From a virus, in IMG/VR virus record IMGVR_UViG_3300029705_000074: 38,269 nt of DNA; one strand, 5' to 3'. Position numbers and translations under genes: made by a program. Below, piece by piece: positions 1 through 26,505 of the stretch (its first letter is position 1; each line of letters opens with the position of its first letter). The notes below the pieces were generated by a model that worked only from the letters and a program-made list of their open reading frames with translations, made no database searches and had not been told where the DNA came from.

Positions 1-30
1 ACTACAGCACGGGCGGCCGCGTGGCCCCGG
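1..30 (+). repeat. DGR variable repeat (VR), 3'-terminal 30 bp only; the remainder lies upstream of the window
   Basis: Positions 1-30 align gap-free with TR positions 756-785 (26/30 identical). All 4 mismatches fall on TR adenines (A->T once, A->G three times). The shared GC-rich 3' end ggccgcgtggccccgg resembles an IMH (initiation of mutagenic homing) element. Confidence 0.8.
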
Positions 31-47
31 CTTTCGTTATTGGATAA
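1..47 (+). CDS. 3' end (partial) of the DGR target gene carrying the VR; predicted C-terminus ...RVAPAFVIG, stop TAA 45-47
   Basis: The VR reading frame matches the AAC-codon frame of the TR and continues to TAA at 45-47. The gene body is outside the window. Confidence 0.55.
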   Translation, partial: YSTGGRVAPAFVIG

Positions 48-149
48 GCGTAAATCGGTCAGCAAAACCAATACGGCAAAGTTTCACCGCGAGGGCAGTA
101 ATGATTAAAATAGCTTATTAAAAAATCAGTTAGAATAGGAGATAATATC

Positions 150-644
150 ATGTCTGTTAAGAAGAAAGACAGGCACGTTTCCAAGCGCGAATGTCTAGGT
201 AAATCAAGAGAGTTAATGAATTATATCCTAGTTCTTACTCGCCCTCGTGAGTTTGATAAGGATGGAAAATAGATTCAAAAACCCGGACTGCTTGGAGAGG
301 GACAACCTCTCCAGGCGTTCGGTTACGATATACTTACCTGCGGCAAGCGCATACACGCCGCCTGTTATGATGCTTGTGAGATTTATCTGAAAGATGAAGA
401 ATCTCTCGAAGCAAGGACTAAGTTACATAAGCAAGCTATTAAATACTGCGATAGCTTGTTTAGGATTATCGACCTTTGTATCTTTCAATATGCAAAGAAT
501 AACAAGAAGAAGCGTCGTTCTTTCGAGTGCTTGGCCAGATTGGTAAAAGCACAAAAAGAGAGCTTACAGGATAGATTAAACCGTGACAAGTTAATCTACG
601 AGCAAAAATACGAGTATCCTCGTCTTCGAAGAAGAGGTCGATAA
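150..644 (+). CDS. avd: Avd-like DGR accessory protein (small, basic, helical), 164 aa, with in-frame TAG at 270-272
   Basis: ATG at 150 preceded by AGGAG (137-141). The frame stays open through TAG 270-272 to TAA 642-644. The protein is Lys/Arg-rich and sits between target gene and TR, as in canonical DGRs. The track shows only the 3' 62-aa piece (456-644). Confidence 0.55.
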
Positions 645-688
645 ATATTGTTTCCTGGGTTAAATTCTGAATTCTTTCGACGCGTTCC

Positions 689-785
689 CGCAACACCAAC
701 AACTCGAACAACGTGTGCAATGTCAACAATGATGGTAGTGCGAACAACAACAACTACAACAACACGAACGGCCGCGTGGCCCCGG
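689..785 (+). repeat. DGR template repeat (TR)
   Basis: Adenine-rich segment that, in the target-gene frame, encodes 14 AAC (Asn) codons, e.g. aacaacaacaac at 743-754. Its 3' 30 bp match VR 1-30 with adenine-only mismatches. It ends in the GC-rich element ggccgcgtggccccgg (770-785). The 5' boundary is approximate because the VR is mostly outside the window. Confidence 0.85.
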
Positions 786-1156
786 ATTAGATGGAGCATC
801 ACGTCACGAGCTAAGTGCCGAAGGCACGCAAGCGAGTGACACCTAGGATTCCCCAGAATACATTACTCCCATCTAATTGTGGCTTTACTATCAGCCACAA
901 CTTCGCTCCTTGGCGTAATGCTGAGGTTCTAGAGTTTTGTTTTTTGAAGATGTATATTTAGAATTGTAATGTGTTATAGGTAGATCTGCCTTCTCATCTA
1001 AGGAGAATTTATCCCTCTCATGTGTAAGTAGGCATGGGTAAAATTTAAGATTGTAGATGCAGAACTCGAGAAGTAACTGCTATTACTGCATGATAAGGAG
1101 AGAGTGTTATTCAAGACCAAAATAATACTTTCGAGCGTTTTTGTAGTTTTGACGCT

Positions 1157-2320
1157 ATGTATGATGCCTCTTATAGAGTATGTCGAAACGTTCGATGGAA
1201 AGATAGTACAATCAATTTTGAAGAAACCAGAATAGAAACAATCCTGCAAACAGAAGCTGACCTGCGAGCTTGTGAATACGAGCAGCTTGTGTTTAGTTGT
1301 TTCTCAATAATCGAACGAGGCAAACCAAGAGATATAAGAGCGTGTCATATAGACGACAGACTGGTGCAAAATGCCCTCTGTGAAGAGACGCTGCTACCAG
1401 AATTGACTCCTAAATTCATCTACGACAATTGTGCAACCCTGAAAGGTAAAGGCATTGACTTTGCCCTAGACCGCTTTAAGAAGCATTTCCAATCGGCCCA
1501 TAGAGAATATGGGCTAGATAAAGATTTCTTCTGCCTTCGTATTGATATACGCAAATACTTTGACTCTATTGACCATAAAGCCTTGAAAGCAATAGCAAGG
1601 AAAGTGATTAAGGATAAACGAGTGTGCGAGCTATGCTGCTATCTCATTGATACATTTTCTTTTAAGCTAACCAAGGATAAGGAGCCAGTAGCAGGTAAGA
1701 CCTACTATATTATCAAGAACCATAAGTATGTGCGTGCGGCAGCCCCGTCTTTCCGGCCGGGCCGCAAGTACTATGAATATGAAGAAAGAAGTCTAGGCTT
1801 AGGAAGCCAAACATCACAATTGTTCGCCCTGTTGACATTGAACGAAGTTGACCACTTCATTAAAGAAACATTGCATATCAAGTATTATGGTCGCTACATG
1901 GATGACCTTTATCTCATGCATGGAGACAGCCAATATCTTGCGCAATGTTAGAAGCGGATTGAAGAAAAGTTGCGAGAAATTGGACTAGAGCTTAATCAGA
2001 AGAAAACCACGATTACTCGCGTCCAAACAATCATGGAGGATGGTGTACGCCATGCTCCAGTAAAATACCTTAAGTGGGACTTTTACATTACTTACACCAA
2101 CCATATCATTCAGACTCCCTTTAAGAAGAAAATCGTTCACCAGCGACGCAAGTTGCGTAAGATGCACGCACTTTGGGTAAAAGGTCTATTACCAACAGAA
2201 GAAGTGCAGAAATCTTATCAAGGTTGGAGAGCACACGTAATGAAGGGGACCTGTTTCTATATAGTTCAAGATATGGACAACTATTTTCGTTCACTATTCA
2301 AAGGAGTTGAGATTAAATGA
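1157..2320 (+). CDS. DGR reverse transcriptase, 387 aa, with in-frame TAG at 1949-1951
   Basis: RT motifs LRIDIRKYFDSIDH and YYGRYMDDLYLMHGD (YxDD). The DGR-specific motif LGLGSQTSQLF ([I/L]GxxxSQ) is present. DDRLVQNALCE resembles Bordetella bRT KDRLVQHALCN. Track ORFs 1157-1951 and 1970-2320 are in the same frame, separated only by TAG. Stop TGA 2318-2320 overlaps the next ATG (ATGA). Confidence 0.9.
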
Positions 2321-3000
2321 AATATGTCTTAATCAATAGAGGCAATGTTGTTGTTGACATCCTCAATGAAGTAAGATACATCAAACTACAATCCAACGGG
2401 TATGTCGTTGCCTGTCCGGAAAGTGAAGGTACTGGGGTTATCGGTTCTGACTGCGATACTCACTACGCTTTAATCAAAACCGATACGCTAAGCTCTCCAA
2501 ACGCAGTTCGCGTCATCGAGAGAGAAGAAATCCCATCTGAGTTAATGCCTGGCCTTTACAAGCTAGATACAGAGACTAATGAATTCGTGTATCGTTATTC
2601 TCTGGAAGAGGCTCAGGAAATGAAACAAGAGCAGAATAAGGTATTGTTCGCAGAATATCTTGCCGCTCACCCACTAACTTGGGTCGATGGGAAAGAATAT
2701 GGAGTCACAATGGAAGACCAGTCTGAGATTAGTTTGAACATTAACCAGTATCAGATTGCTCTTCAAGCGGGTGTCGAAAACCCTGTGCTCGAATGGCACG
2801 CTCGTCACGAAGAGTGTACCGCATGGCCCCTTGAACAGCTTGTTGCGCTGTCTTTGGCCATCTCTGAAGTCGTCTATCCTATGTATCGTCTATGCCAAGA
2901 ATATAAAATCGCTATCTATGGCGCAACCTCTATGGAGGAACTTGCGGCCGTCCAGCTTGTATATGGCGAGGAGCCTAGCGATGAGGAAGCAGCTGAATAA
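2317..3000 (+). CDS. hypothetical protein, 227 aa (possibly tail-fibre-assembly/DUF4376-like; weak)
   Basis: Uninterrupted ORF. The ATG overlaps the RT stop, suggesting translational coupling. Stop is TAA 2998-3000. The family guess rests only on N-terminal style and position. Confidence 0.45.
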   Translation: MKYVLINRGNVVVDILNEVRYIKLQSNGYVVACPESEGTGVIGSDCDTHYALIKTDTLSSPNAVRVIEREEIPSELMPGLYKLDTETNEFVYRYSLEEAQEMKQEQNKVLFAEYLAAHPLTWVDGKEYGVTMEDQSEISLNINQYQIALQAGVENPVLEWHARHEECTAWPLEQLVALSLAISEVVYPMYRLCQEYKIAIYGATSMEELAAVQLVYGEEPSDEEAAE

Positions 3001-3436
3001 GCTTATTGCCCTCTTTTTGACCGGTGGTACAATTTATTACCTCATTGAAGCAGTTTGGAAAAGCTGCTTCAGTGATGGTATACTACACTGGTCAATGTTC
3101 TTGCTTGGCGGGCTGTGTTTCGTTATTATCGGCGGTTTAAATGAGTATATACCCTGGGAAATGGATTTAATTAAACAGGGTCTAATAGGTGCTGTTGTAG
3201 TCACCTCATTGGAGTTCATTTTTGGCTGTATCCTCAATCTTTGGCTTGGCCTTGGCATTTGGGATTACAGCAATTCACCGCTAAACATATTAGGATAGAT
3301 TTGTTTACCTTTCTCAATAGCTTGGTTCTTCTTGGCTATTATCGCTATATTGCTTGATGATTTCCTGCGTTATAAATGGTTTGGCGAAGAAAAACCACAC
3401 TACCACATTCTCAATCGGCAACTTTGTGGTAAATAA
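2981..3436 (+). CDS. small polytopic membrane protein, 151 aa (holin-like or DUF1113-like), with in-frame TAG at 3296-3298
   Basis: ATG 2981 with GAGGAG 7 nt upstream. Several hydrophobic helices (LIALFLTGGTIYYLIEAVW, FLLGGLCFVIIGGL, GAVVVTSLEFIFGCILNLWLGLGIW). After TAG 3296 the frame continues into another hydrophobic helix (ICLPFSIAWFFLAIIAILL) and ends at TAA 3434-3436. Confidence 0.6.
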
Positions 3437-3482: not shown

Positions 3483-4244
3483 TTAGCCAACATCAATGAT
3501 AGAGATGGCAATGTTATTCTCTGGCTTAGTAGGTGAGGTAAATACAATACCTACACCGACAGTAGCCTCGGCACCGGAAATCTTGCTATATTCCTCGCGG
3601 TTATCAACATAGGTGATAATAGGATGTACGTTACCATCCTTACCGCAACGGATAGCGGTATTAGCATAGCTATAAGTATAACCATCTGTATCATTACCGG
3701 ACCATCCAGAGGCGGATAGAGTTGCGGTATAGATCACAGAGGTTGCCACTCCGATACGAGTATCGGTTTCGGCCTTGCTATAAACACTAAGGTTGGTACG
3801 TGCACCAGTCGCATCTGTAGCACCCAAACCACCAGCAGATAGAGGAAGTGTACCAAACTGAGGAATACCAGCTGTACTTGCATACAGAGCGCCAGTACCC
3901 TTCAATCCCGTGACACCATTGGTGGTATCACCGATTACCAGCGCGCCTTTCTCAATAGCAATAGCTCTAACAGTATTGTTATCGCCACCGACCAGAAGAG
4001 CATTTTTAGTGATGCCATCTGGAGAGTATAGCACTTCATCAACATCAATGAACTCGATTGCGGTGCCGTTATTTTTAATCAGAGTAGAAGCGTTTACAGT
4101 GTATCGACCGGTCTCGGTGTCAACTACAAATTCGCCGCTATCTTCGAAGAAGTACGCATAACCGGGATGTAGTGCGTAATTGGAGAAACCGTTAATGCCG
4201 TCAAAGTCATCAGCGGTTCCGCTATAAATCTTAAATAAAGCCAT
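3483..4244 (-). CDS. tail fibre/receptor-binding-like structural protein, 253 aa
   Basis: ATG 4244 with AAGGAGG upstream and TAA stop. Gly/Thr/Ser-rich beta-type composition. Last gene of the tail/fibre block. Confidence 0.55.
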   Translation of the reverse strand: MALFKIYSGTADDFDGINGFSNYALHPGYAYFFEDSGEFVVDTETGRYTVNASTLIKNNGTAIEFIDVDEVLYSPDGITKNALLVGGDNNTVRAIAIEKGALVIGDTTNGVTGLKGTGALYASTAGIPQFGTLPLSAGGLGATDATGARTNLSVYSKAETDTRIGVATSVIYTATLSASGWSGNDTDGYTYSYANTAIRCGKDGNVHPIITYVDNREEYSKISGAEATVGVGIVFTSPTKPENNIAISIIDVG

Positions 4245-4278
4245 ATTTAGGCCCTCCTTTATACTCTCTAAATATAAA

Positions 4279-6399
4279 TTAGGTTGTTACTTGTCCGCGT
4301 TCGTCTCCGCGAATAATGGGTACTGGGGCAGATTCAACCATATCTGGCAGAACATTAGAGTTATCTTCGTGTTCCACAAATCGTCCCCAAGTATTTAGTG
4401 TATCATCGAGAGCCCCTAATAGCTCGTCAATCTTAGCTTGTGAGTAGGTTTTCTTCTCGCCAGTTTCGGTATCAAGACCTTCAATCAGCGAGTTGACATA
4501 TGTGGCAGAATATGCCTTATCATCAGACTCAACATATACTCTTGCGATAAAGCTATCAACAGCACCAGTTAGCTGGGAATAGGTCCAAGCTCCAGCCACT
4601 CCTACTTGCGGAGCTGTCTTATAGAACCAATAGGCAATGTTACCAGAGTCATCAGCAATATTGGCAGAGTATAGTTGCTCAGATGTTGCATCAGAATGGT
4701 TTGCATCCAATACAGCAATAGCAGCCTCAATGCTTGCTTGTTCTCCAAGGTCTGCAATGAAGTTAAGCGCGGCGCCGGTCGGACCGACGAGATTTGCTAC
4801 CACTACTTTGCCAGATTCTTTGTACTCATACAGATCGCCGGTATCCGTATTTAACCAGTAATCTCCGGTAATTGCGCCCGCTGGCTCGGTGGTTCCAGAA
4901 TACATCTTACTTCCACGAGGGATACCAAACTTGAAACCAAGCTTATCGGCTCCACTGACCTCCACTGCCGCAGTCGCTTCTTCCGCAGGTCCAAGGGTTT
5001 TAGTTTCAGTAACCTCAGCCAACGGAGCAGTGGGCAATCCAAATGTGAAGCTCCAAGTGCCATCAGCAGCCTGTTCAAGCTCGACGGTTGGCTTTACAGC
5101 TTCTTTAGTGGTTGCGTCGTATGGATCAAGCGCATTAACCTTAGAGGTTCCATTAAAGCTGGGTAGTAAAGTACCCTTGGCTACCCAAACACCATCCACA
5201 AGTTCATAGATAGTGTTATTAGAAGTTATAATAACAATATCGCCATCATGGTATGTATCATCTACCGCAGGTAAGGTTGCCGCTTGATAGAACTTACCAG
5301 TACGTGGTAGTGTAAAGGTAAGAATCTGATGTGTACCATTCGCGTTAGGAGCCATTGTAACCCCAGGATCCTCACCCGGATTAACAAGTATTGTATCTGC
5401 TAACTCAAACTGCCAAGTATTAGGAATCGTGATATTAAGTACTGGATTATTGACATCAGTTTTGTCCAGCCATGCCTTAATATCCTCCTCTGCCACAGAT
5501 GGTTTTACATGAGTGACAGGCACTTGCTCCTCAAGGTTTTGAGATTGAGGAAGTTGTACTCGTAAAATCGGGGTATTGATGGTTGGCGTATACAGAATAT
5601 TAGCACCGCTACCATCTTTCTTATAGATAGGTTCATTATTGCTATCATAAGACTCGATGATATAATAACCTTGAACAGTATCTTTATTCTCGGTCTTGGT
5701 GATAATATAAGCCTTGGGCTTTTCACCAACATCCAAGATATCATACTCTGGATGTGCTACACCCTCAATTACTTGTACGCCAATACCCAAGAGGTTTTGA
5801 GACTTTGGTAGAGTAAACTTGAATCTACCGAGATAAGCCTGGTCTGGTGCCTCGTTGGTGCCATGACTACCAATATTGCGTAGCTCAACGGCAGGTAACA
5901 CGTCCACATTAGCTTCTACAATATCCTGAACACCATTGTCGAAATTCCAGCTACCTGGGATAGATAACTCAATTTCTACTTGGTCAGGGTAAGTTTCTCT
6001 TGTAGTATCAACTTCGGCCTTAGCGCCACTACCAGGAGCCAAAGTCTCCTTTACACTTGCTGTAATTCGTGGTGTAAAACCTGTTAATGTTGAGATAAGG
6101 GTGTATACAATACCAGTGCCTCCGGCGCTTTCGTCGTAACCCTTTCTCCAAAGAGTGGAGTTGTAACTTTTCTGCAAATCGTTAGCATTAGCCGCATAGG
6201 CCAGATCGCTATCTCGATTTGCAATAAACTTATCGCTACTAGGCTCACCGTAAGAAATCATTACATATTCGCCAACTGCGATAGAGGATTTCCACCCCTT
6301 GTTGATATCTCCGAGCAAGCCATCTGCTCCATAATAAGTCGGGAAAATCGCCTTAATTTCAAAGCTTTGTCCCGCAGGACCGCCATAAAAAGAATTCAT
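4279..6399 (-). CDS. large tail structural protein (fibre/spike-like), 706 aa
   Basis: Uninterrupted ORF. ATG 6399 with AAGGAGGG upstream. TAA stop 4279-4281. Confidence 0.6.
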   Translation of the reverse strand: MNSFYGGPAGQSFEIKAIFPTYYGADGLLGDINKGWKSSIAVGEYVMISYGEPSSDKFIANRDSDLAYAANANDLQKSYNSTLWRKGYDESAGGTGIVYTLISTLTGFTPRITASVKETLAPGSGAKAEVDTTRETYPDQVEIELSIPGSWNFDNGVQDIVEANVDVLPAVELRNIGSHGTNEAPDQAYLGRFKFTLPKSQNLLGIGVQVIEGVAHPEYDILDVGEKPKAYIITKTENKDTVQGYYIIESYDSNNEPIYKKDGSGANILYTPTINTPILRVQLPQSQNLEEQVPVTHVKPSVAEEDIKAWLDKTDVNNPVLNITIPNTWQFELADTILVNPGEDPGVTMAPNANGTHQILTFTLPRTGKFYQAATLPAVDDTYHDGDIVIITSNNTIYELVDGVWVAKGTLLPSFNGTSKVNALDPYDATTKEAVKPTVELEQAADGTWSFTFGLPTAPLAEVTETKTLGPAEEATAAVEVSGADKLGFKFGIPRGSKMYSGTTEPAGAITGDYWLNTDTGDLYEYKESGKVVVANLVGPTGAALNFIADLGEQASIEAAIAVLDANHSDATSEQLYSANIADDSGNIAYWFYKTAPQVGVAGAWTYSQLTGAVDSFIARVYVESDDKAYSATYVNSLIEGLDTETGEKKTYSQAKIDELLGALDDTLNTWGRFVEHEDNSNVLPDMVESAPVPIIRGDERGQVTT

Positions 6400-7240: not shown

Positions 7241-9175
7241 TTACACTCTTGTTAAAACTTCCGTTGCTGTAATACTCATGACACCATTATAAGCAAGAGG
7301 AAGAGTAAATTGAGTAATCTAGTAATTGCCATAGATGTTGCTCTCTTTGTCTTCAATCCTGATAATATTATTTGGTTCCATGTAATATTTTGGCAAGCAG
7401 GTTAGAGAAATAGTGGTATTATAACATAAGTTCTAATACATCATTTCTCGAATTTTGTCGAAACAGCTCGCCCCAGTAGAACTCGTCAAAAATAGGTCAT
7501 AGTATTCTTTCTATAAGATAAAAAATCTTTGACCCATATTCTCGTAACGCACCATTTCATCATGGTTTAACCCTTCGATGAATACAACGTCTGGGACTTC
7601 GCTATTATATATGGTTTTTATCTCAGTATTATTAACCACTTTAGTCCTGCGTCCGATATTCTTAATAGAATACTTGCCCAAAGCAACCGTTGGGTCAGAT
7701 GCATCAATAAAATCTAACCAAAAGTTGATAGAAGCAGGGTCGTTAAAAACATCGGGATTCCAGTGATTTGTGGCCGCCCAATTCTCATTCATTGGGTTAT
7801 ATAGTCCACGCCACTCGGCTAATAATTCAGAGTCATAGTAGTTATCATACACACTGGTTGTTACCTGAGCAACAAGAGCGTGACGATATAGCTCCTCTCT
7901 CCATTCCGTACAAGGAACGCCAATTAAGGTTGCAGTATAGCCAGATTCGGGTGGGGAATAAGTCTTGTCCTATTCGGTAAACTCATAACGAACAAGGCTT
8001 CCAGAACCATTCTTAACTTCCCACATATTCTTATTAACCAAGCTATCCTCACCATCAATAGCAGGTTTATCATCAATAGCAAGATGATAACGGATATTAA
8101 CCTTGACCCCGGAAGAAGCAGTCCGCTGTCCCCAAACATAAAAATCATTCTTCACGTTCGCATAGTTGGGATTGCGGGAAAGCTGGGTTGTGGTGTCTAG
8201 TGAGGTCAATGAATAGAGGAACTTAGCATTGTTGTAAGAACGCACATAGTCGGCTGCGGATAGTTCCTCTAGAGGGCTGGCAGTGTTGAGATAGTTCTTA
8301 ATCTCTTGGAAGATAAAGTTACCGTCAATATCATAGTAATATTCAAAATTACCTAGCGTCTTGACGATTTTATCCAGCAAAGAAACTACGGTCTCACCAG
8401 CGTTTAGTACAAGTTCACCGGGATAAGTGAAATCGGTATACTTATATCCTGCATCCTGTCCATAGCTGTACATATGCGGGAAGTCTGGGTTGTCTCCACT
8501 AAAGCTCAAGCTTTGATAATCACTAGAGAAGTATACTGGAGCATCACCAACATACTTAACCAACAACTTAACCTGCTCGTCGATATCTGTGATGATGATA
8601 CGATTAGCATTCTCTCCACCCCAGTGGTTAACTGCTTCAAAGATAATTTGGAAGATTGTGGGACTCTAGATCTCAATATCCCCATTATCTTGATATATTA
8701 ACTTCTCATGGAAGGTTGTAGACGCCGGCAAGGTCCCGCCCGCAGTTCCATCTAATAGACACATTTTATCCTTACCATTGATGGAGATAGACCATCCACT
8801 GGTAGAACGTGAAATGTTTGCACCAGATAGTACAAACAGACCGCAAGGGAACCAAATAATCTCGCCATAGTGAGCATAACTCTTTAGGGGATTTTTATAA
8901 CCCACATAGACTTTGACTTTCTTGTTAATAGAAATCTCATTATCTATGTTTTCAAGGTCGCTATTCTCGGCGGAGGCCAGCATAGTAAGGTTAATGGTTC
9001 TTCTAACAGAAGAAGAACCATTAACACTTAAACTACCAGCCGTAATGTTTCCCTATATCTCCCTAATGGGAGTTTCATCCTTGAAAGAAAGAAGAACAAT
9101 TTTAGCGTATTGTGTACGCATATGTAGCTTGTCTAACTTCTGTAAGAAGTCCATGTCATTTAGATAGCCAAACAT
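7241..9175 (-). CDS. large virion structural protein (baseplate/tail), 644 aa, 6 in-frame TAG
   Basis: Track ORFs 8666-8983, 7970-8566 and 7511-7852 share one frame. Gaps contain no TAA/TGA. Read-through of TAG 7511 adds ~90 aa and ends at TAA 7241-7243, which lies inside the SD of the next gene. The first ATG after the upstream TAA (9194) is at 9173-9175. Confidence 0.55.
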
Positions 9176-9193: not shown

Positions 9194-11800
9194 TTATTTC
9201 ATTCTTGTCTAGCTTGTTAGACACTTATAATCAACGATAGCATGTTGTGCTTTCGGTAGGTTGATATATCTTACAAGACCATCCATTGGAGATAACGTGT
9301 ATCGTCCAGTAGGACCAAGTCGAACTGTTTGCGCAGTCTCCTTACTTGTACCAATCTCTAGCTCGGTATATGGGTCAGCCTCAATGGTGAAAGAGATAAT
9401 ATCAGAGAAGGTATAGTAGATTGTACCATCGGTCCAATTACCATCATCGTCTAGATAGAATCCATCCTTTACAAGATAAATATGCTCTACCATTTTACGA
9501 GTCTCTTCCTTGATAATCTCATACAGATTACGCGTTTTATAGAGGTTATAATTTGTACTATCTACAATTACGTAATAATACTCATTCGCTTTATCCCAAG
9601 CATAATCGGTTTCAAACTCTACCGCACTACCAAAACTTGGGTCGCTAAGCTTGGCGGGAGGATTCGTACCATACACACGATAAGGGGCTTGACCCTCGCG
9701 ATAGTCAAATATATATCGCTGCAAGATTGCTTTATCGTCAGTAAACACACCAGAAATCTATCCCCAGACATGAGACACGTCAATGGAAGCAACTTCTTTG
9801 GCTTCCTCATTACGGCCTCGAGTTAGAGAGACAGTGTAGTTAATAATAATTGGGTATGGCGCAGAAATAATCGACAGTGACTGAATACCACCCTCGACGG
9901 CATAATACCTATTTGGAGCTACGACAACTTCAGCACCATTGACTGATAGTCTCGCAAAGCCGCCAGCCGCAGACGTATTCAAAGCAGTCTGCAAGCCTTC
10001 ATAGTAATCAATCTGCTCCTATAATTCTTTCACCAGCTCTGTATCTCCAGCTTCCTCTGCCTCTTGTTTATTAGCTTCCAGCTCATATCGTTTACCGAGC
10101 ACATCCACTTCTGGATAACGCTCTACCCAGAAAGAATTGATTTGCTGCAGATTAAGCTGATACTTGCCATCACCAACGATAATTTCCTCTTGTTGTCGCA
10201 CAAGACTATAAATATCTTTGTCGGCTGGATAAGAAGAGGTATCACTAGCGTAAACACCTGCAATCTGACCAAAAGCATCATCAACTTCCACAGACTGCTC
10301 TTCCGTGAACTCACCAATGTGTATAATACCTACCTCATTTAAAGCCTCTAAGGTGTTTTCCATTACCTCATAGGCCGTGGCAGAAAAATCAAAAATCATG
10401 CGCCCCAAAGTTGCATTTGGCGTCATTGATACATTCAATAAGCCAATAACAATGTTTCCCTCAGTTGGAGACTTGTAAAGCTTATAATCAAAGTCGTTAA
10501 GAAACTCTTCTACCTTCTCGCGGAACTTTCTCTCGATAAAGACATTATCCTCTGTTAGATTAGTGTCAATATCAAAAGAGGTGATAACAACCTAAGAACC
10601 TCGTTCTCCTTCTGTTTTGAACTTGTCAAAAGGAACGATTAACTCATCTTTGAAATAACAACCGCCTACACTGGTAGAGAAGAATGTATCGTCTTTATCC
10701 ATCTGATAACTGATAGTACCAGAGATAGGGAATTCCGCATAATGAGCGTGTCCATTCTTGACCAAATGTGGATACCGATCGCCCAGAGTATCCTGTTTAC
10801 TAGCCAAGACGGTATGCTTAAAAGTATTTACCTTTTGATTGAGAGATAGCTTAAGTTGAATACCATCTCGATAGATGTATGAATACTCAAAATCTACGCT
10901 TACTGGCTGATTATATTCTATCATTGTACTGCGTAAACCTTGAGAGTTCTGATACTGGAATCCATACTTATAGCGTACTCCGCTCTCGATTGTAAAATCG
11001 AAATACAAAGGTTTATCTTCTGTATAACTACCCTCAAATAGATTAAAATACTTAATATCCTCATATACACCATAGTTACTTTTCTCGGAAGTTCTTGTTA
11101 ACACATAACAACCGGTCAAAGCCATTGGAGTATTAGTCATTGGATATAGACACACCTTAATGCAACCATTATCTCGGCAATAGATATCCTAATTACCTTT
11201 AACTACCATACCAACATTCTCGATGGCTTCCAAATAAGTTTTCTTTACCTGGAATGAATATTCCTTATAGGCTTCATATCCATTGATAGTTACAATGGTA
11301 AAGCGCACCTTATAGTTTGCATTATTGGTCAGAATAGTCTTAAATCTGTAAGAAATACTCTGATTAACCGCGGCAATCCAGTCTGAGGTCTCTATAAAGC
11401 TATCTTCCTCGTCATATAAGTCAAACTTATATTTGTCGAGAATCTCATTAGAATTCCCGCTTATAGAGTAAACACCCGTAAATAAAGGTGTTAACGAGTT
11501 TTCAACATTCGTGGTATTTACAGTATCAGGTTTTGATACTCCTGCGTTAGCTATCTCAACAACCGGAGAATCAATAGCCTTGATTACCATAACAGTAGAC
11601 CACTCAGAGAAAGTTCCTTCTTCAGTTTGCTTCTTTTTCCAGTCTGCGAAATTAATGGGTTGACCCCTTACAATTTCGTATCTTTCTGTAGTACCGAAAC
11701 GAACCTAAATTTTGTAACAACGACCAGGGGTCCAATCTTCCCTTAAGTCGTCTCTTGTAATCTCAGTATAGTATAGGCCTTCTCTGCCGCCATCCTTCAT
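9194..11800 (-). CDS. large virion structural protein, 868 aa, 6 in-frame TAG (9209, 9758, 10019, 10592, 11189, 11705)
   Basis: Five track ORFs (9209-11590) are co-frame with TAG-only separators. The frame is open upstream to ATG 11798-11800, which overlaps the TGA of the preceding small gene (ATGA). TAA stop at 9194-9196. Confidence 0.55.
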
Positions 11801-17370: not shown

Positions 17371-20300
17371 TCATTCGCGTCTCCTTCTAATGTATTGGGA
17401 AGCATCATTACTAAGGTTGCTAAGAGCTTCCGCAATCTCGTTACGGTCAGTTGCATTGGGGAAGACCGCTTCGATGTGTACCTCTTGTTGCAGGGTATCA
17501 CCAATAGGTTGAATACTACCGGCACCGCCGATACGCTCTTTCATAAGTCCCATACCTGCGGCCACAGAGCTATCGAGCGCTCTTTCGATTGCTGCAAAGA
17601 ATTCTGGACCTAGCATACGCACCGCATTAACGGCCGCAAGAATATTATTAGTATCCTCTTGGTTGAGCACAAGCTCCTTCTCGTGGAGGAAAGCAAGTCT
17701 TGCACTATCGAACTCTCCGGTATAACCACCAGTGGCGAAGCCGGCCTCACGTACTAGTCGATCAACCGTATCTTTCCACGCGGTACCGTTGTGATGATAA
17801 TTCCAGTTATCTTGTGCCAAAGCATCATTCAAAATGCCTTGTGCGACGGAATACATACCAGGATACATACTCTCAACCTGCTGTCTACGCACAGGGTTAT
17901 TGTCATAAAGGCCAAGACCCATATCGTAAACCAGCTAAGACATCTGAGTAGCGCTCATGGCACCACCAGTACCAACACCCGTAGGCTCAGTTTGAGGGGT
18001 ATCCGGCGTATCTGGGGTTGTAATCTCTGGTACTTCCGGTGTGTTATCTTCAACATAAGATTGCTCTACCTGTGCGGCCTGTTCCGCAGCAAGCTGTGCC
18101 ATTGCCTGCGCAACAGCAAGATACTGCTCTGCCAGTAGGCTCAATTCCGCAGACAATGCAGCTGCCGCATCAACCTGACCCCACAAAGCCACAGCAGCTT
18201 CCTCGCCACGACTACGCAATTCGTCAGTGGCATCAGAAACTATGTCTGTTTCATCAGCAAGATCGCCCAGAGTGGTACCAGTTTCTCTTGCTACATCTTC
18301 AACCTTATCTTGATAGCTCTGGAAATTACCCTCACATTGCTCTAACAGGCCTCTTAAATCTGTCTCAAAGGTTTCGGTGTTTCCAGTCATGAGTTCTAGG
18401 TCTTCAGCATACTTATTTTCGAATAGATCAATCAGTTCTGTATTGCTTGCTACAATATCCTTAATTGCCTCGTTATTGCCGGATAAAATATCAATAATGC
18501 TTCCGCCACTATCTTCCACAATTTGCTGAATTTCCTCAGATGTTAAACCTGTCAAATCTGTGATAGTATCGCCCATTAAGATGGCGTTGGTGAGCAGAGA
18601 CTCATTGCCAGCTTCTGTCATATCAGACACCGCGACCTGCTTTTCTTCCTCAAGAGATTTAATCTTGTCGGTATAATAAGCATAAATCTCGGCAGCCCTA
18701 TCGGCACGCTCTTGGTCTGTTAGCGTCATATCATTATAGATTTCAGCAACAGCATCAGAACATTCTTGCCACAGGCCAACAATCTCACCAGTAACATTGG
18801 TCACTTGCTCTTTGGCAATATTATACCACTCGTTCTGAGCAGTAATTAGATCTTGCTCTGCCTATTCTACCTAGCCCGGGTCAGCGGTATACTGGTAATT
18901 CCAGTTACCTTGACGGTCACGAACAAGTTGGAGATTATTCTTGGCATTTTGAGCATCTTCAAGAGCGATTTGCGCTTGCATAACCTGGTACTTAGCTTCA
19001 AGAATCTCAAGGTCATACTTGGATAACTTGCCACCCTCACGACGCAAATCAATCTCTTCTTGTAGAGTCTTAAGGCGCTCTCTGGTAGAAGCGCTTGTCG
19101 CTTCGTCGATATCTTTCTGAAGCTTATTATACCAAGAGGTAACCTAATAAGCTTCATTTACCTTATCGAGATAACGCTGCTCTGCTTCGATATAATGGTC
19201 ATATTTATCTTGCAATAAATCAAGACCTAAGCCATTAGAAGCCGCCTGTCCAAACTCATACACGGCACGTTCAATCTGTTCAAGATACATCTCTTGTGCA
19301 GTCTCCATCGCTTCTTGAGCAAGAGAAAGATAGGCTTCTTGAGCCTCGTTGAATTCCTCAAGATATGCGTCACGAGCCTTTAACAAACGATCATGCTCAT
19401 TTGTTCCCTCTTGACCACCTGCGGCGAGATAGGCATCTAGTTCTGCCTGAGCTTGCGCTAGGCGCTGTCTGGCTTCATCTGCCCATTTCTTATTCAAGAC
19501 TGCATTTGCGGTCTGGGCTTCTAGTCGCTCCCCAAGGTTACGCTATAAAGTTGCAAAACCGCTAGCAGTTTTATTCGTCACACCTTGCAATGCATAAAGT
19601 TCCTTAATGGTCTCTAGCACAGAGGTATTGTGATCAAGCTAATCAGTAAACTTGGCAAACCGATCGGCGGCCGCATTTACGGCCTCTGGAATAATTTCCT
19701 CGATGGTATCAGCCCACTCGACAATGGCTGCGGCAGAATCAAGAATCTGGCCCTGGAGCTCTTGAATGTCTTCCATAACAGCCTCTTCGTCTGCGTATGG
19801 GTCAGACAACATTTCTTGCAGGCCCTGCCACTTCTCGACATAATCGCCAAACATATTGGCTTCTCGACCGGCCAAATCGGCACTCAGTTTCTCATACATC
19901 TTAAAGTGGGACAGATAGTCACCCTATGTTTCATAAAACTCTTTCCAGAATTCGTCAATGGAATCCTTCATGCTCTTTACATCAAGCACAATTTCGAGTT
20001 TATAGTCGATTTCTTGCAGCTTAAGATCAGACAGCTCTCTTAAACCATCAAGAAGAATTTGTTGCTGCTCGTTAACAATATCCAATGTATCTTCATATTG
20101 AGATACAAAGTCCTGCCATTGAGTCCAACGCTCTTCTGCCGCTTCGAAAACTGCTTGCTGAGCTTCAAGCTCATCTGCGGCCGCCTCTTGCTTAGTGGCA
20201 CTCATTGCATTATATGTCTCAATATAGGCATTATATGCATTTAGGCTAGCTTCATAATAAGCAAGTTCATTGGCCTACAATCTATCAAAGTTGGCAATCT

Positions 20301-23300
20301 CGCCATCCTCATCAAAGATAGCTACATCATTACCACCAGCGCTTAAGAAATCCTAAAGAGCTTTTTGGTCTTCCTTTAGCCATTCATTGGCTTCTTCTAG
20401 CTTGATATTTTGATTTGCAAGCTAGGTGTTTAGCTCTTGCTCACGCTTAGTAAATAGCACAAGTTTATTGGAACCATAGGCCCTATCGATCTATGTACCA
20501 ACTTCCTCGAGCTCTCGTTCCTGAGCCTCAATAACACGATTGATGCGATGGTAACGTTCTGGCTCTGCGTTACCTTCTTCTTTATCTATCTGCTTAGGCT
20601 TAGAAGAACCTCCACCACCGGGAGAGCCGCCACCCGCATTTTTCTTAGAGTAATTATTATAGTTACCAGTAGCCTTCTTGGTAATTCCATCAATAACAGG
20701 AGTTTTACCATTAGTGGTCATGGCAATAGCGTCTACATAACCCTCTGCTTCATAATATCCATCTTGATAAGTGCGAGTACGGGTACGAATAACCGTATTA
20801 CCATTATCATCCTCGTATGTACCGGCATCAATAGTTTCAGTTACATACTCAGGAACTCTCTGCTTTGTGAGCACAGGCTCTGTTTTGAAATTCGCCTCAA
20901 AGCCCATTGCATCAAACAAAGCATTGACTTGGTCAACGGTCATTCCAGCATCTGCTATCAACTGTTGAGCCTTGGTGAGGAATTCTCCATCATCTAGAGA
21001 AACACCAACATCGATATCTGGAATTAAGGCCACAAGATTTTGATAATCTGCTAAGATTGTAGCCGTTTCATCTTCGCTTAAGCCATTCTCAACAACGATT
21101 CTAGCAATGATGTCATTGCCCAGCTTACTCTTTAAGTTATCAATTGCAGTTGCACTACCCGTAGCAGCTTGCTCAATAAGATCAAGATTCTGACTAATAA
21201 AATCATTAGACACGTAATCTTCACTAACATCAAGCAAGTTAGCAACAGCAGTACGGCAATCTTGCATCGCTTCCGCAAATTCTTCACTATCTTCAGACGA
21301 GTTCTGAATAATATCAGACCAGTCTTCGAAGTTGTTGGACAAGTCCTCAATGGCATCATTCATTTTCATGATACCCTTGGCCACGATGCGAGCTTCGTTA
21401 TCGCTCATTTCATCGTTAAGACCTTCCATTTCATCAGCAGAAGTTCTTAGATAGTCCGCAAAATCTTCCCATTCTTCTGGGTCAAGCATCTCAGTATCAG
21501 ATGCTCTATCAAGATTAACAGCAGCCTATGTATAAGCCTCAGTAGAGATGATACCATCATCAAGAGCTTGCTTCAAATCGTCTAGGTTATCATAAGAACT
21601 TGCAATAGCAAGATTCCATGCTCGAGCTTCTGCCTCATTCGCAGCGATAGTGTCACTCAGTCCATTAAAGGCTCCGCTACATTCGCCAACCATTTGGGCA
21701 ATTTCATCAAGACCATCGTCGAAAGAGCCAGCCGCCAAATCTTGATACCACTCATCCAACTTCATCTTGGTTTCATCTGTCTGGTCTCCCAGTAAACGAA
21801 TTATATCAAGCTGTTGTTGAACAGTGGTGTGGTCATACTTCCAATCACCATTTTCATCTTGGTAATTAGCTTGCTTAGTTAGATTATTGAAATCATAACC
21901 TTGCAGATTACGATACTCCTGGTTTCGAGCTTCCAGGGTATTCATACTTTTAGTGGCTTCATCCAACAAGGCTTGCTGAGTAGCTTCCTTAAACTCGGCC
22001 GCGTTAGCGGTAAGTTTATAGGTGCCATCAAGCATCATGGTGAAGTATTGCTTAGCGCCTTCTCCAAGAGTATCATAATCCTCTTTAGAAATTGTATCAC
22101 CAGTGGCAATACCATCCATTACCTCGCGAATAGCCGCATACTTAGTTTGGAAACTCTCTAAACTACTTACTACTTCCTTAATGCCTTCTGCAAATTCCTC
22201 TAAAGAGCCTGCTTCATGGGCAGCGATAGCTTCATCAAGCTTGCCATAGGCAGAAGCAAGAGCAAAGATATCCGCAACATCTTGCATTTCAGAAAGTGTA
22301 AGATTACTTAAATCAGCATCCTCAAGAGCCTGCTATACAGAACGGGCATACTCTTTTCCGACATTATCCATGTCATCTCGAGTATTCTCAGCAGCATTGA
22401 CAACACCATCAACAAACTCGTTAACAAGTTCTTCTCCAACCTCATCAATACCAATACCTTCTTGAGCAGCAATAATAGCCTTAATTGCTTCTTCTCCACC
22501 GAACTGACTAATCACTTCATCAGCAGTGTCATAATCAGCAAGAGCATCTCTTAGGGAATTACTAAAATCACCCTGGGCAATATAATTGAGTGCGCCTTCA
22601 TCAAGGTCTTGCAATTGTGTCTTGGCACCCTGTGCGCTATCACCAATTTCGTCAAGGGCTTGAGCTGCTGCAATCATGGCAGCAATTTGCTCAGCATTAT
22701 ATACAACTTCTTGTCCTTGAGAATTTAGGAACACAAGACTGCGGTTATTATCGGTACCACGAACTGCATTATCAGTTTGAGCACTGACGTCGTAGCCGGC
22801 ATCCCGCAAAGCGCGTAAGGTCTCTTGATAAATGGAATTTCCAGAACTAGAGGCTTTGTTGATACCGCTACCAGTAAGCTTATCTTCCCATTCATCTGTC
22901 AATTCTTGAGTAAGCGCATCAATTTGACCAGTAACCATGGTTTGAACAGCTCTATCAAGAGTGGTTTGAGCCACGCCAAGAACCTGTTCAACTTGCATCT
23001 GAGTGATAAGATTAAACTTCTCACCCGCGGCGACCGCGCTATCGGCCATGCCCTGAATAGCAGTATACCATGTATCGATGGTATCTTCGGAATCAGAAAT
23101 TGAGAATCCAAGCTTTCTTAGAGCAGGCACCAACTCTTGTTTGGATAGCTTAGCCAACTCTTCATAATTAGCAAGGAGTATATCTCTATCGCCACTGTCG
23201 CTTGTTTCATCTCGATAGCTATATGCCTTACGGCCTAAGGCCATTGCATCAGCACGAAGCTGCATATCTGCGGCATACTTTTCTGCGGCAGATGCTGCAT

Positions 23301-26300: not shown

Positions 26301-26505
26301 AGTCAATAGAATCTCCTTTAACATTCATGGCGCTTTCCAAGTTGCGCTTCAATTCCAGCGCCGCTGTTGAAGCTTGCTATAAACTTGGTACCATGGAAGA
26401 TTGTGTACTAAGATTGCTCAAAGAGCTTAGCGCTTCTTTGATAGCAGCCTAAAATTGGTTAGTATCGGCTGTAATACCAATCTGGTAATTCAATCTTTTA
26501 GCCAT
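17371..26505 (-). CDS. tape measure protein, about 3044 aa, about 24 in-frame TAG
   Basis: Thirteen track ORFs (17371-27147 region) share one frame. All internal separators are TAG, and all gaps were hand-checked free of TAA/TGA. Ala/Glu/Gln/Leu-rich coiled-coil composition. Hydrophobic segment (SLSMLLPTLSMAFGAL). ATG 26503-26505 preceded by AAGGAGGAAAAGGAC. TGA stop 17371. Sits between a chaperone-like gene and the fibre gene. Confidence 0.75.

What the first reader, a model, noticed from the sequence alone, without database searches (positions are those of the whole stretch)
1..2320. Complete diversity-generating retroelement: VR end, avd-like gene, AAC-rich TR, DGR-type RT
- TR 689-785 encodes 14 AAC codons in the target frame.
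- Its last 30 bp match window positions 1-30 (end of an upstream gene) with 4 mismatches, all at TR adenines (3 A->G, 1 A->T). This is the hallmark of adenine-specific mutagenic homing.
- Both copies end in the GC-rich element ggccgcgtggccccgg.
- The RT (1157-2320) has the DGR-specific LGxxxSQ motif and bRT-like blocks.
- The order target-avd-TR-RT is canonical.
- The target gene ends at TAA 45-47 and is probably a receptor-binding (C-type-lectin-fold) tail protein encoded just upstream of the window.
Basis: partly seen in the sequence, partly recalled or inferred. Interest (0 to 1): 0.85.

Follow-up and report, generated by a model that had tools for sequence, protein, structure and literature searches.

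The report
Active DGR in TAG-recoded gut phage
This is a working diversity-generating retroelement, a reverse-transcriptase device that rewrites the tip of a phage surface protein at adenine-templated positions; it is a textbook example of a well-known system, sitting in a phage that reads the TAG stop codon as glutamine.

Summary
Window 1-30 is the last 30 bp of a variable repeat (VR). It matches the template repeat (TR) at 756-785 with 4 mismatches, all at TR adenines.

I recovered the missing upstream DNA from near-identical public contigs. The full VR/TR pair is 107 bp (TR 679-785), with 17 mismatches, all at the 36 TR adenines and none at the 71 other sites. Six different VR alleles occur in genomes that are 98.8% or more identical in the flanks. 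Thirty-one related loci show 575 A-site and 0 non-A mismatches.

- avd and RT each carry an in-frame TAG, and the whole phage recodes TAG to Gln.
- The RT probably starts at ATT 1109, not ATG 1157.
- The TR is 10 bp longer than stated.
- The TR-RT spacer contains covariation-supported RNA helices that mirror the BPP-1 template:primer and Stop duplexes.

Verdict: a new member of a known kind.

The parts
1..30 (+). Last 30 bp of the 107-bp variable repeat (VR). The window's contig starts inside the VR.
   Evidence: Matches TR 756-785 with 4 mismatches, all at TR adenines. The full VR was recovered in L001/L002/L003 at 7608-7714.
3..47 (+). Last 14 codons and the TAA stop of the target gene (...YSTGGRVAPAFVIG*). 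The complete gene is about 589 aa: Ig-like Big_3 domains plus a C-terminal DUF6273 domain that contains the VR.
   Evidence: Pfam: DUF6273 E=1.9e-12, Big_3 E=2.7e-11.
15..30 (+). GC-rich element GGCCGCGTGGCCCCGG at the 3' end of the VR (IMH-like). TR/VR homology stops right after it.
   Evidence: Exactly two copies in the window against 0.01 expected. Downstream sequence diverges: CTTTCG in the VR against ATTAGA in the TR.
150..644 (+). Avd-like accessory gene, 164 aa, pI 9.7, with an in-frame TAG (=Gln) at 270-272.
657..668 (+). 5' strand (GGGTTAAATTCT) of a long-range RNA duplex that closes off the TR. Candidate equivalent of the BPP-1 'cPRT Stop' duplex. It ends 10 nt before the TR.
   Evidence: Pairs with 1004-1015. 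6 of 12 pairs show compensatory changes across 11 sequence groups.
679..785 (+). Template repeat (TR), 107 bp, 36 adenines, 13 AAC plus 2 AAT codons in the target frame.
   Evidence: A T/C polymorphism at 730 is copied into the cognate VR of each strain.
770..785 (+). GC-rich element at the 3' end of the TR, identical to VR 15-30.
786..795 (+). Segment just 3' of the TR (ATTAGATGGA). Proposed template-side strand of the template:primer duplex. It has two mutually exclusive partners.
   Evidence: Pairs with 868-878 or, through 787-794, with 994-1001.
803..840 (+). Interrupted 13-bp stem-loop capped by G-N-A, 17 nt after the TR. Candidate Avd-binding stem-loop.
   Evidence: Helices 2 and 3 of the RNAalifold consensus; 8 of 13 pairs show compensatory changes. 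The functional assignment is by analogy with BPP-1 Sp5-32 (bioRxiv 10.1101/2023.10.23.563531).
868..878 (+). Proximal partner (CCATCTAATT) of 786-795. Alternative helix, about -16.5 kcal/mol.
   Evidence: Helix 1; energy. By eye, compensatory changes in L033, L041 and L044. Replaced by a local hairpin in L039.
994..1003 (+). Distal partner (TCATCTAA) of 787-794, followed by an invariant GG. Proposed primer strand, with the priming nucleotide near A1001.
   Evidence: 8 pairs, 100% of cells paired, 6 with compensatory changes. The order primer strand - GG - Stop strand parallels BPP-1 Sp47-56 / G57 C58 / Sp59-70.
1004..1015 (+). 3' strand (AGAATTTATCCC) of the Stop-like duplex.
1052..1090 (+). 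Conserved nested hairpin immediately upstream of the RT ribosome-binding site (AAGGAG 1095-1100).
   Evidence: Helices 10 and 11; 6 of 12 pairs show compensatory changes.
1109..2320 (+). DGR reverse transcriptase. Probably 403 aa from ATT 1109 (gene callers use ATG 1157, giving 387 aa). In-frame TAG (=Gln) at 1949-1951. LGSQTSQ at 1799-1819, YMDD at 1895-1906.
   Evidence: RVT_1 E=1.7e-16. Best PDB hit is bRT 8ub7_A at 8.7e-13. The conserved N-terminal FERFCSFD lies upstream of ATG 1157, and there is no ATG/GTG/TTG between TAA 1094 and 1157. Relatives start 16-19 codons earlier.
2317..3000 (+). Conserved 227-aa ORF whose start overlaps the RT stop (ATGA). No family assigned. Travels with the cassette.
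2981..3436 (+). 151-aa membrane protein (Pfam ABC_trans_CmpB) with one in-frame TAG. Last gene of the + strand block.

Best explanation
Window 1-2320 is the 3' part of an active diversity-generating retroelement (DGR) of a tailed gut phage that reads TAG as glutamine.

Proposed mechanism:
1. A transcript spanning roughly 657-1015 or beyond (end of avd, TR, spacer) folds so that the TR is enclosed by a long-range duplex, 657-668 with 1004-1015.
2. The 8 nt just 3' of the TR (787-794) pair with 994-1001. This places a spacer nucleotide near A1001 as primer next to the GC-rich end of the TR.
3. The RT (1109/1157-2320), together with the basic four-helix-bundle Avd-like protein (150-644), copies the TR into cDNA. 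Copying is faithful at C, G and U and error-prone at A.
4. The cDNA replaces the VR at the 3' end of the upstream target gene. The shared GC-rich 16-mer (15-30 and 770-785) marks the 3' boundary of transfer.
5. The result is variation at up to 36 adenine-templated positions (15 AAY codons) in the C-terminal DUF6273 (C-lectin-like) domain of an Ig-domain-bearing surface protein, presumably a receptor-binding or adhesin protein.

Shown here: the anatomy, the adenine specificity, the allelic diversity, the RT type, the Avd-like fold, and the RNA pairings by covariation.

Inferred: which nucleotide primes, the role of each RNA element, virion attachment of the target, and expression that depends on TAG suppression.
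For: 1. Adenine-only divergence. The full 107-bp VR/TR pair has 17 mismatches per allele, all at 36 A sites and 0 at 71 non-A sites, in L001, L002 and L003 (P=3.7e-10). Across 31 related loci there are 575 mismatches at 1102 A sites and 0 at 1915 non-A sites.
2. Recent activity. Six different VR alleles occur in genomes whose flanks are 98.8-99.97% identical to the window. Of 25 variable VR columns, 24 are TR adenines. The one exception (position 52, T/C) follows a TR polymorphism of the same strain, which is direct evidence of TR-to-VR transfer.
3. RT. RVT_1. The best solved relative is the BPP-1 DGR RT 8ub7_A at 8.7e-13, with IGSLTSQLFAN aligned to LGSQTSQLFAL. The nearest GenBank phage RTs (about 33% identity) include phage nd12 (a DGR phage of PMC10743442) and Roseburia phage Shimadzu; Faecalibacterium phages follow at about 29%.
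5. Target. Big_3 plus DUF6273. DUF6273 is a published DGR target domain with a C-lectin-like fold (PMC10743442).
6. RNA. Across 11 sequence groups, 20 pairs are 95.5% paired against 39-55% when the partners are slid. Twelve pairs have compensatory changes, against 4.0+/-1.3 in shuffles. The layout matches the BPP-1 ribonucleoprotein structure (bioRxiv 10.1101/2023.10.23.563531).
7. TAG = Gln. Stop-free coverage rises from 85% to 99% when TAG is read through. TAG<->CAG swaps occur among otherwise synonymous differences between the window and L001. Gln is the commonest residue aligned with TAG.
Against: - No reads were available, so within-population VR variation is not shown directly.
- The fold of the target domain could not be modelled (pLDDT 36.7).
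- The RT has no canonical start codon in front of its conserved N-terminus.
- No suppressor tRNA lies in the window or in the fetched flanks.
- No hairpin immediately downstream of the VR (as in BPP-1) is consistently conserved.
- The upstream strand of the Stop-like duplex was located in each sequence by best complementarity. It does lie at a homologous, ungapped position.
Confidence: 0.95

Rival explanations
1. The cassette in this particular genome is a relic. It diversified in the past but is now inactive, because avd and RT are interrupted by TAG and the RT has lost its start codon.
For: In-frame TAG at 270-272 and 1949-1951. No ATG/GTG/TTG in front of the conserved RT N-terminus. Some relatives do have a broken RT: a nonsense codon in L012 and a frameshift in L036/L037.
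Against: TAG is a sense codon throughout the window: 24 in the 3044-aa tape-measure gene, and stop-free coverage of 99%. TAG and CAG interchange as synonymous codons between strains. The window and L003 differ at 1 of 2996 flanking bases but at 3 of the last 30 VR bases, all at TR adenines. The RT start region has a strong Shine-Dalgarno sequence 8 nt before ATT 1109, which aligns with the TTG start of relatives.
Confidence: 0.06
2. The conserved spacer between TR and RT is only a leader and translational control region for the RT. The proposed template:primer and Stop duplexes are not used in reverse transcription.
For: The spacer is about 220 nt longer than in BPP-1. A conserved hairpin (1052-1090) abuts the RT ribosome-binding site. 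RNAalifold on the spacer alone prefers the proximal helix 786-795 with 868-878.
Against: The distal duplex and the duplex enclosing the TR both show several independent compensatory changes, for example TTAGATG/CATCTAA against TAAACAAA/TTTGTTTA against CAAGATG/TATCTTG. Their order, with an invariant GG between them, reproduces the experimentally solved BPP-1 arrangement. A pairing between sequences upstream and downstream of the TR has no obvious role in RT translation.
Confidence: 0.15
3. The RT belongs to a group II intron or retron, and the TR/VR repeat is an unrelated duplication.
For: NCBIfam gives sub-threshold hits to group II intron maturase and Drt/retron RT models.
Against: All those hits are far below their cut-offs (69.9 against 300 bits, and similar). 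There is no Rfam hit to a group II intron or any other RNA in 1-2400. Motif 4 is SQ-type. The best solved relative is the DGR RT. Mismatches in the repeat are exclusively at A.
Confidence: 0.01

Closest known systems
Bordetella phage BPP-1 DGR (mtd-avd-TR-brt), the prototype
   Same: [quoted passage not shown] Adenine-only TR/VR differences. A GC-rich element at the 3' end of both repeats. RT with the [LIV]GxxxSQ motif; bRT is the closest solved relative. A basic four-helix-bundle accessory protein. An RNA with a template:primer duplex followed after 2 nt by a duplex that pairs upstream-of-TR with spacer sequence.
   Different: - RT is only distantly related (phmmer E=8.7e-13) and about 75 aa longer, with an insertion before motif 4.
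- The Avd-like protein is 164 aa against about 120 aa, with a beta-hairpin insert, and is not recognisable by sequence.
- The primer strand lies about 209 nt after the TR, against 47 nt in BPP-1.
- An additional competing proximal helix is present.
- No conserved hairpin right after the VR.
- The target is Ig-like domains plus DUF6273, not the Mtd beta-prism/beta-sandwich/C-lectin architecture.
- avd and RT contain sense TAG codons.
DGRs of human-gut Bacillota phages with DUF6273 targets (phages nd4/nd12, Faecalibacterium phages; PMC10743442, PMC11792537)
   Same: Gut phage DGRs. Target domain is DUF6273, described as C-lectin-like with a hypermutated surface. The nearest GenBank phage RTs, at about 33% identity, include phage nd12.
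   Different: The 'tentaclins' of those phages carry the C-lectin domain and VR at the N-terminus, followed by Ig domains. Here the order is reversed (Ig-like first, DUF6273 and VR at the C-terminus), so this is not a tentaclin. This cassette has a single target. The phage has a much larger genome (contigs 75-148 kb) and is TAG-recoded.
[quoted passage not shown]
   Same: DGR in a stop-codon-recoded gut phage. In-frame TAG inside the RT, GxxxSQ motif, and a C-terminal C-lectin target with Ig-like domains.
   Different: A different phage lineage. This window encodes a siphovirus-type structural module with a 3044-aa tape-measure protein, and its capsid-like protein is 51.7% identical to phage phAss-1, not to Crassvirales. 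Most Zeta crAss DGRs lack avd; this one has it.
phAss-1 group of TAG->Gln gut phages (PMC10607447)
   Same: TAG read as Gln in virion genes. Contigs of about 100-148 kb. Capsid-like protein 51.7% identical. Related to large Enterococcus siphophages.
   Different: The phAss-1 paper does not mention a DGR or a reverse transcriptase. No suppressor tRNA lies in this window; phAss-1 has three elsewhere in its genome.

Membership tests
Diversity-generating retroelement (DGR) | Template/variable repeat pair whose differences fall only at template adenines | tested here: met
   17/17 mismatches at A in each of three full alleles. 575 A-site and 0 non-A mismatches over 31 loci.
Diversity-generating retroelement (DGR) | Reverse transcriptase of the DGR clade (motif 4 [LIV]GxxxSQ, YxDD active site) | tested here: met
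   LGSQTSQ and YMDD. The best solved relative is bRT 8ub7_A at 8.7e-13. No clade phylogeny was made.
Diversity-generating retroelement (DGR) | VR inside a protein-coding target gene; TR non-coding and next to the RT | tested here: met
   The VR forms the last ~37 codons of a ~589-aa ORF in L001-L003. The TR lies between avd and RT.
Diversity-generating retroelement (DGR) | IMH-type boundary: GC-rich stretch shared by the 3' ends of VR and TR, followed by divergent sequence | tested here: met
   Identical 16-mer at 15-30 and 770-785, 15 of 16 bases G/C. The flanks differ. Its function in homing is not testable here.
Diversity-generating retroelement (DGR) | Evidence of ongoing diversification | tested here: met
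   Six VR alleles in >=98.8% identical genomes. 24 of 25 variable columns are TR adenines. A TR SNP is copied to the VR. At least six contigs break inside the VR.
Diversity-generating retroelement (DGR) | DGR RNA elements: template:primer duplex and a duplex pairing sequences upstream and downstream of the TR | tested here: met
   20 pairs, 12 with compensatory changes, 95.5% paired. Function is inferred.
Diversity-generating retroelement (DGR) | Adenine-mutagenic cDNA synthesis by RT plus accessory protein | not testable with these tools
   Needs biochemistry or in vivo assays.
Avd (Pfam PF05635 / 23S rRNA-intervening-sequence protein family) | Sequence match to the family model | tested here: not met
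   No Pfam, NCBIfam or PHROG hit for the window protein. None of 42 family members hits PF05635 even at E<=10. A profile search of PDB sequences found nothing.
Avd (Pfam PF05635 / 23S rRNA-intervening-sequence protein family) | Small, basic four-helix bundle encoded between the target and the TR | tested here: met
C-type-lectin-fold DGR target | VR lies in a C-lectin-fold domain | tested here: inconclusive
   Pfam DUF6273 E=1.9e-12 over residues 473-599, which include the VR. DUF6273 is reported as C-lectin-like in PMC10743442. My own model of the 78% identical P0102 failed at pLDDT 36.7. There was no PDB sequence hit.
Tentaclins (PMC10743442) | N-terminal C-lectin domain with VR, followed by Ig-like domains and a C-terminal anchor Ig domain | tested here: not met
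   The domain order is reversed: Big_3 at residues ~35-193 and DUF6273 with the VR at the C-terminus.
TAG->Gln recoded phage (code 15) | In-frame TAG in many essential genes, interchangeable with Gln codons in orthologues | tested here: met
   No suppressor tRNA was found in the window; the rest of the genome was not examined.

The most novel reading that the evidence does not exclude
The segment just 3' of the TR (786-795) has two conserved, mutually exclusive partners. One is a stronger proximal helix (868-878). The other is a weaker distal helix (994-1001) that sits next to the Stop-like duplex in the BPP-1-like priming geometry. Together they could act as an RNA switch that keeps the template sequestered until RT-Avd binds. 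Combined with sense TAG codons in avd and RT (2-3 consecutive TAGs right after the start codon in relatives), this would confine mutagenic homing to the late, TAG-suppressing phase of infection.
Probability: 0.25. Interest if true: 0.55.

Novelty: new member of a known kind. Interest (0 to 1): 0.35.

Why it matters
The case itself is ordinary: tens of thousands of DGRs are catalogued (from memory), and gut phages are their richest source. It is useful in four ways.
- It is an unusually clean natural demonstration of DGR activity: several alleles in near-identical genomes, and a TR SNP carried into the VR.
- Standard DGR finders and gene callers will split or miss it, because avd and RT contain TAG, the RT lacks a canonical start, and the Avd-like protein has no family model.
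- It places a DGR in the phAss-1-related lineage of TAG-recoded phages, where the lineage's founding description mentions none.
- Its family gives independent comparative support for the two RNA duplexes seen in the BPP-1 cryo-EM structure, in a distant DGR with a much longer spacer.

Tried and rejected
- Looked for a second VR or a wrap-around target in the window: only 1-30 matches the TR.
- Looked for tRNAs or a suppressor tRNA in the window and 34 loci: none.
- Rfam scan of 1-2400 in E-value mode: no hits.
- blastn of 1-2400 against GenBank phages: only a 113-bp weak hit.
- Sequence-based identification of the avd-like ORF (Pfam, NCBIfam, PHROGs, PDB phmmer and profile, Pfam on 42 members): nothing.
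I used P0001, which is 99% identical, instead.
- AlphaFold of the target C-terminal domain proxy (P0102, 7-row alignment) failed at pLDDT 36.7, so no fold search was run on it. A profile search of PDB with the same alignment found nothing.
- Looked for a conserved hairpin or cruciform right after the VR, as in BPP-1. Inverted repeats exist in some subgroups (window TATTGG 38-43 / CCAATA 69-74), but they are not conserved across the family.
- An early idea that upstream TTCTG pairs with the CCCCAGAA loop (853-860) was dropped in favour of the much better supported 657-668 / 1004-1015 duplex.
- RNAduplex on long segments gave uninterpretable structures.
Full report
**1. Checking the observation**

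The sequence at 1-30 (ACTACAGCACGGGCGGCCGCGTGGCCCCGG) aligns without gaps to 756-785. There are four mismatches, each at an adenine of the 756-785 copy. The 16-mer GGCCGCGTGGCCCCGG occurs only at 15-30 and 770-785; 0.01 copies are expected by chance. Frame 3 of the window start reads ...YSTGGRVAPAFVIG and stops at TAA 45-47. The chance that four mismatches all fall on the 8 adenines of the 30-mer is 0.0026. That is suggestive but not decisive, so the missing upstream DNA was needed.

**2. Extending the window**

The ORF at 2317-3000 has no TAG, so I could look it up by exact sequence. It lies on 22 public contigs. L001 (a 136-kb ENA contig), L002 and L003 carry about 7.7 kb upstream of window position 1, and they are 98.8-99.97% identical to window 5-3000. 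They show a gene of about 589 aa that ends at the window's TAA.

The last 107 bp of that gene before the divergence point align to window 679-785. In each of the three full alleles there are 17 mismatches, all at the 36 TR adenines and none at the 71 other positions. The hypergeometric P is 3.7e-10 per allele.

The window, L004 and L006 contribute partial VRs, so six different alleles are seen in near-identical genomes. Of 25 variable columns, 24 are TR adenines. The remaining column (TR position 52, window 730) is T in strains whose TR has T and C in strains whose TR has C. A non-adenine TR polymorphism has therefore been copied faithfully into the VR. That is direct evidence for TR-to-VR information flow.

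The window and L003 differ at 1 of 2996 flanking bases but at 3 of the last 30 VR bases.

**3. The family**

A scan of IMG/VR with the RT found 32 loci with RTs 60-100% identical, on contigs of 13-148 kb. Every locus that retains the upstream DNA has one VR, an avd-like ORF, a TR and the RT in the same order. Summed over 31 loci there are 575 mismatches at 1102 A sites and none at 1915 non-A sites.

Four more distant cassettes (L039, L041, L043, L044) were fetched through Avd-like homologues. They have the same architecture, with a Big_3/DUF6273 target in three of the four.

At least six contigs, including the window itself, begin inside the ~107-bp VR. The likeliest reason is that VR microdiversity breaks the assembly. 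This is an inference.

**4. TAG is a sense codon**

Under the standard code avd stops at 270-272 and RT at 1949-1951. Reading TAG through has three effects:
- stop-free coverage of the window rises from 85% to 99%;
- fragments fuse into ORFs of 3044, 1342 and 941 aa;
- the 3044-aa tape-measure gene alone is seen to carry 24 in-frame TAGs.

Between the window and L001, RT codon 265 is TAG against CAG and avd codon 140 is CAG against TAG. The other 25 codon differences in these two genes include only one amino-acid change. Across the family, Gln is by far the commonest residue aligned with TAG. So TAG encodes Gln (code 15).

No tRNA lies in the window or the fetched flanks.

The window is otherwise a structural module, with a portal, a capsid-like protein, a virion structural protein, a tape-measure protein and tail or tail-fibre proteins. 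The capsid-like protein is 51.7% identical to phage phAss-1, a published TAG->Gln gut phage, and 36% identical to ~140-kb Enterococcus siphophages.

**5. The RT**

The RT matches Pfam RVT_1 at E=1.7e-16. Its best match among all PDB sequences is the BPP-1 DGR RT (8ub7_A, 8.7e-13), and the DGR-specific IGSLTSQLFAN motif aligns with LGSQTSQLFAL. NCBIfam hits to group II intron, Drt and retron models are far below their cut-offs.

The conserved N-terminal sequence TFERFCSFDA is encoded upstream of ATG 1157. Relatives start 16-19 codons earlier at ATG or TTG. In this strain no ATG, GTG or TTG lies between TAA 1094-1096 and 1157. However, ATT 1109 sits 8 nt after AAGGAG (1095-1100) and aligns with the TTG start of one relative clade. 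I infer a 403-aa RT that starts at ATT 1109.

In the largest relative clade the RT begins TTG-AGT-TAG-TAG-TAG, that is, three consecutive TAGs at codons 3-5.

**6. The accessory protein**

The 164-aa product of 150-644 has no hit in Pfam, NCBIfam, PHROGs or PDB sequences. None of 42 homologues touches the Avd model either. About 100 clusters of homologues exist in metagenomes, and all are unannotated.

Position, size, charge and fold all agree with Avd, but sequence membership is not demonstrable. It works like Avd and is probably a very divergent member of that family.

**7. The target**

The domain order here is Ig-like first and C-lectin-like last. That is the reverse of the 'tentaclins' of that paper. 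It resembles the tail-fibre targets described for Zeta crAss-like phages.

My own model of a 78% identical proxy was useless (pLDDT 36.7). The gene block is convergent with tail-fibre genes on the other strand (3483-6399). This fits a virion adhesin but does not prove it.

**8. The spacer RNA**

The 786-1108 region is conserved in blocks. On 23 sequences RNAalifold predicts 70 pairs, 21 of them with compensatory changes. Overall 97.8% of cells are paired, against 34-53% when the partners are slid.

Guided by the BPP-1 ribonucleoprotein structure, I looked for a pairing between sequences upstream and downstream of the TR. I found that 657-668 (GGGTTAAATTCT), which ends 10 nt before the TR, pairs with 1004-1015 (AGAATTTATCCC).

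Immediately 5' of that strand, separated by an invariant GG, lies TCATCTAA (994-1001). It pairs with TTAGATGG (787-794), the 8 nt just 3' of the TR.

In the more distant cassettes both duplexes change in a compensatory way:
- Template:primer duplex: TTAGATG/CATCTAA becomes TAAACAAA/TTTGTTTA in L039, CAAGATG/TATCTTG in L041 and TTAGATAAA/TTTATTTAA in L044.
- Stop-like duplex: GGTTAAGTTCT/AGAACTTAACC becomes GGTCAAACTCT/AGAGTTTGACC in L044, GGTTAAAATCT/AGATTTTAACC in L041 and GGGCATATTCT/AGAATATGTCC in L039.

Counted formally on 11 sequence groups, 20 pairs are 95.5% paired, against 39-55% when slid. Twelve pairs have compensatory changes, against 4.0+/-1.3 in shuffles.

The order primer strand, two nucleotides, Stop strand is the order of Sp47-56, G57 C58 and Sp59-70 in BPP-1. 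If the analogy holds, a nucleotide near A1001 primes and the first templating base is A786, next to the GC-rich end of the TR.

The same 786-795 strand also pairs, more stably (-16.5 kcal/mol), with a proximal CCATCTAATT at 868-878. That helix is conserved and covaries in most groups, but in L039 it is replaced by a local hairpin. The two pairings cannot coexist. Whether this is a regulatory switch is speculation.

An interrupted stem-loop at 803-840 is a candidate Avd-binding stem-loop by position.

**9. Comparison with what is known, and verdict**

All defining features of a DGR that can be tested in silico are met. In-frame amber codons in DGR RT genes of recoded gut phages have already been reported (PMC12386605). 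DUF6273 targets are known. Putative Stop duplexes were predicted in 207 of 278 DGRs.

What is new is modest:
- this lineage, related to phAss-1, whose description mentions no DGR;
- a sequence-unrecognisable Avd-like family;
- a probable ATT-initiated RT;
- a long spacer with a competing helix.

I classify it as a new member of a known kind, with high confidence in the DGR assignment (0.95) and moderate interest (0.35).

Noticed in passing
window 3483-38269 (minus strand): The rest of the window is a TAG-recoded structural module. It holds a portal (36620-38212), a capsid-like protein (33551-34597, 51.7% identical to phage phAss-1), a 3044-aa tape-measure-like protein with 24 in-frame TAGs (17371-26505), and tail and tail-fibre proteins. 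No tRNA is present.
   Followed up: partly
L013-L038, RT start (for example L016 about 9956-9975): In the largest relative clade the RT begins TTG-AGT-TAG-TAG-TAG (two TAGs in L013/L015). So two or three consecutive recoded stop codons directly follow the start codon. This could gate RT translation on TAG suppression.
   Followed up: partly
L012 about 10109; L036/L037 RT about codon 165: Some relatives have a disrupted RT: CGA>TGA at codon 55 in L012 and a frameshift in L036/L037. Their VRs are still heavily diversified (21-22 A-site mismatches). These are either recently dead cassettes or assembly errors.
   Followed up: partly
window 1; L004 1; L006 1; L008 1; L021 1; L036 1: At least six independent contigs start inside the ~107-bp VR. 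The likely cause is that VR microdiversity breaks the assembly graph.
   Followed up: no
window 2317-3000: A conserved 227-aa ORF whose ATG overlaps the RT stop (ATGA). An ORF of 161-224 aa is called directly after the RT in the distant cassettes L039-L044 too; homology to this ORF was not checked. It has no Pfam or PHROG hit. Its C-terminal half reminded me of DUF4376/XkdW-type tail-fibre assembly proteins; that is from memory and was not tested.
   Followed up: no
window 853-860 (CCCCAGAA): The CCCC in the loop of an AU-rich hairpin in the spacer is invariant in all 23 aligned sequences. No partner was identified.
   Followed up: partly
window 38-43 and 69-74: An inverted repeat TATTGG/CCAATA spans the target stop codon. 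L010-type relatives have a longer version (ATTGGATAAT/ATTATCCAAT), but other clades lack it. Its relation to the BPP-1 post-VR hairpin is unclear.
   Followed up: partly
L001 4492-4944 and the flanks upstream of the target: A resolvase-family gene and several small unknown ORFs on the opposite strand lie upstream of the target gene, and a RuvC-like gene lies further on. The DGR block therefore sits between the tail-fibre end of the structural module and a recombination/replication region.
   Followed up: no
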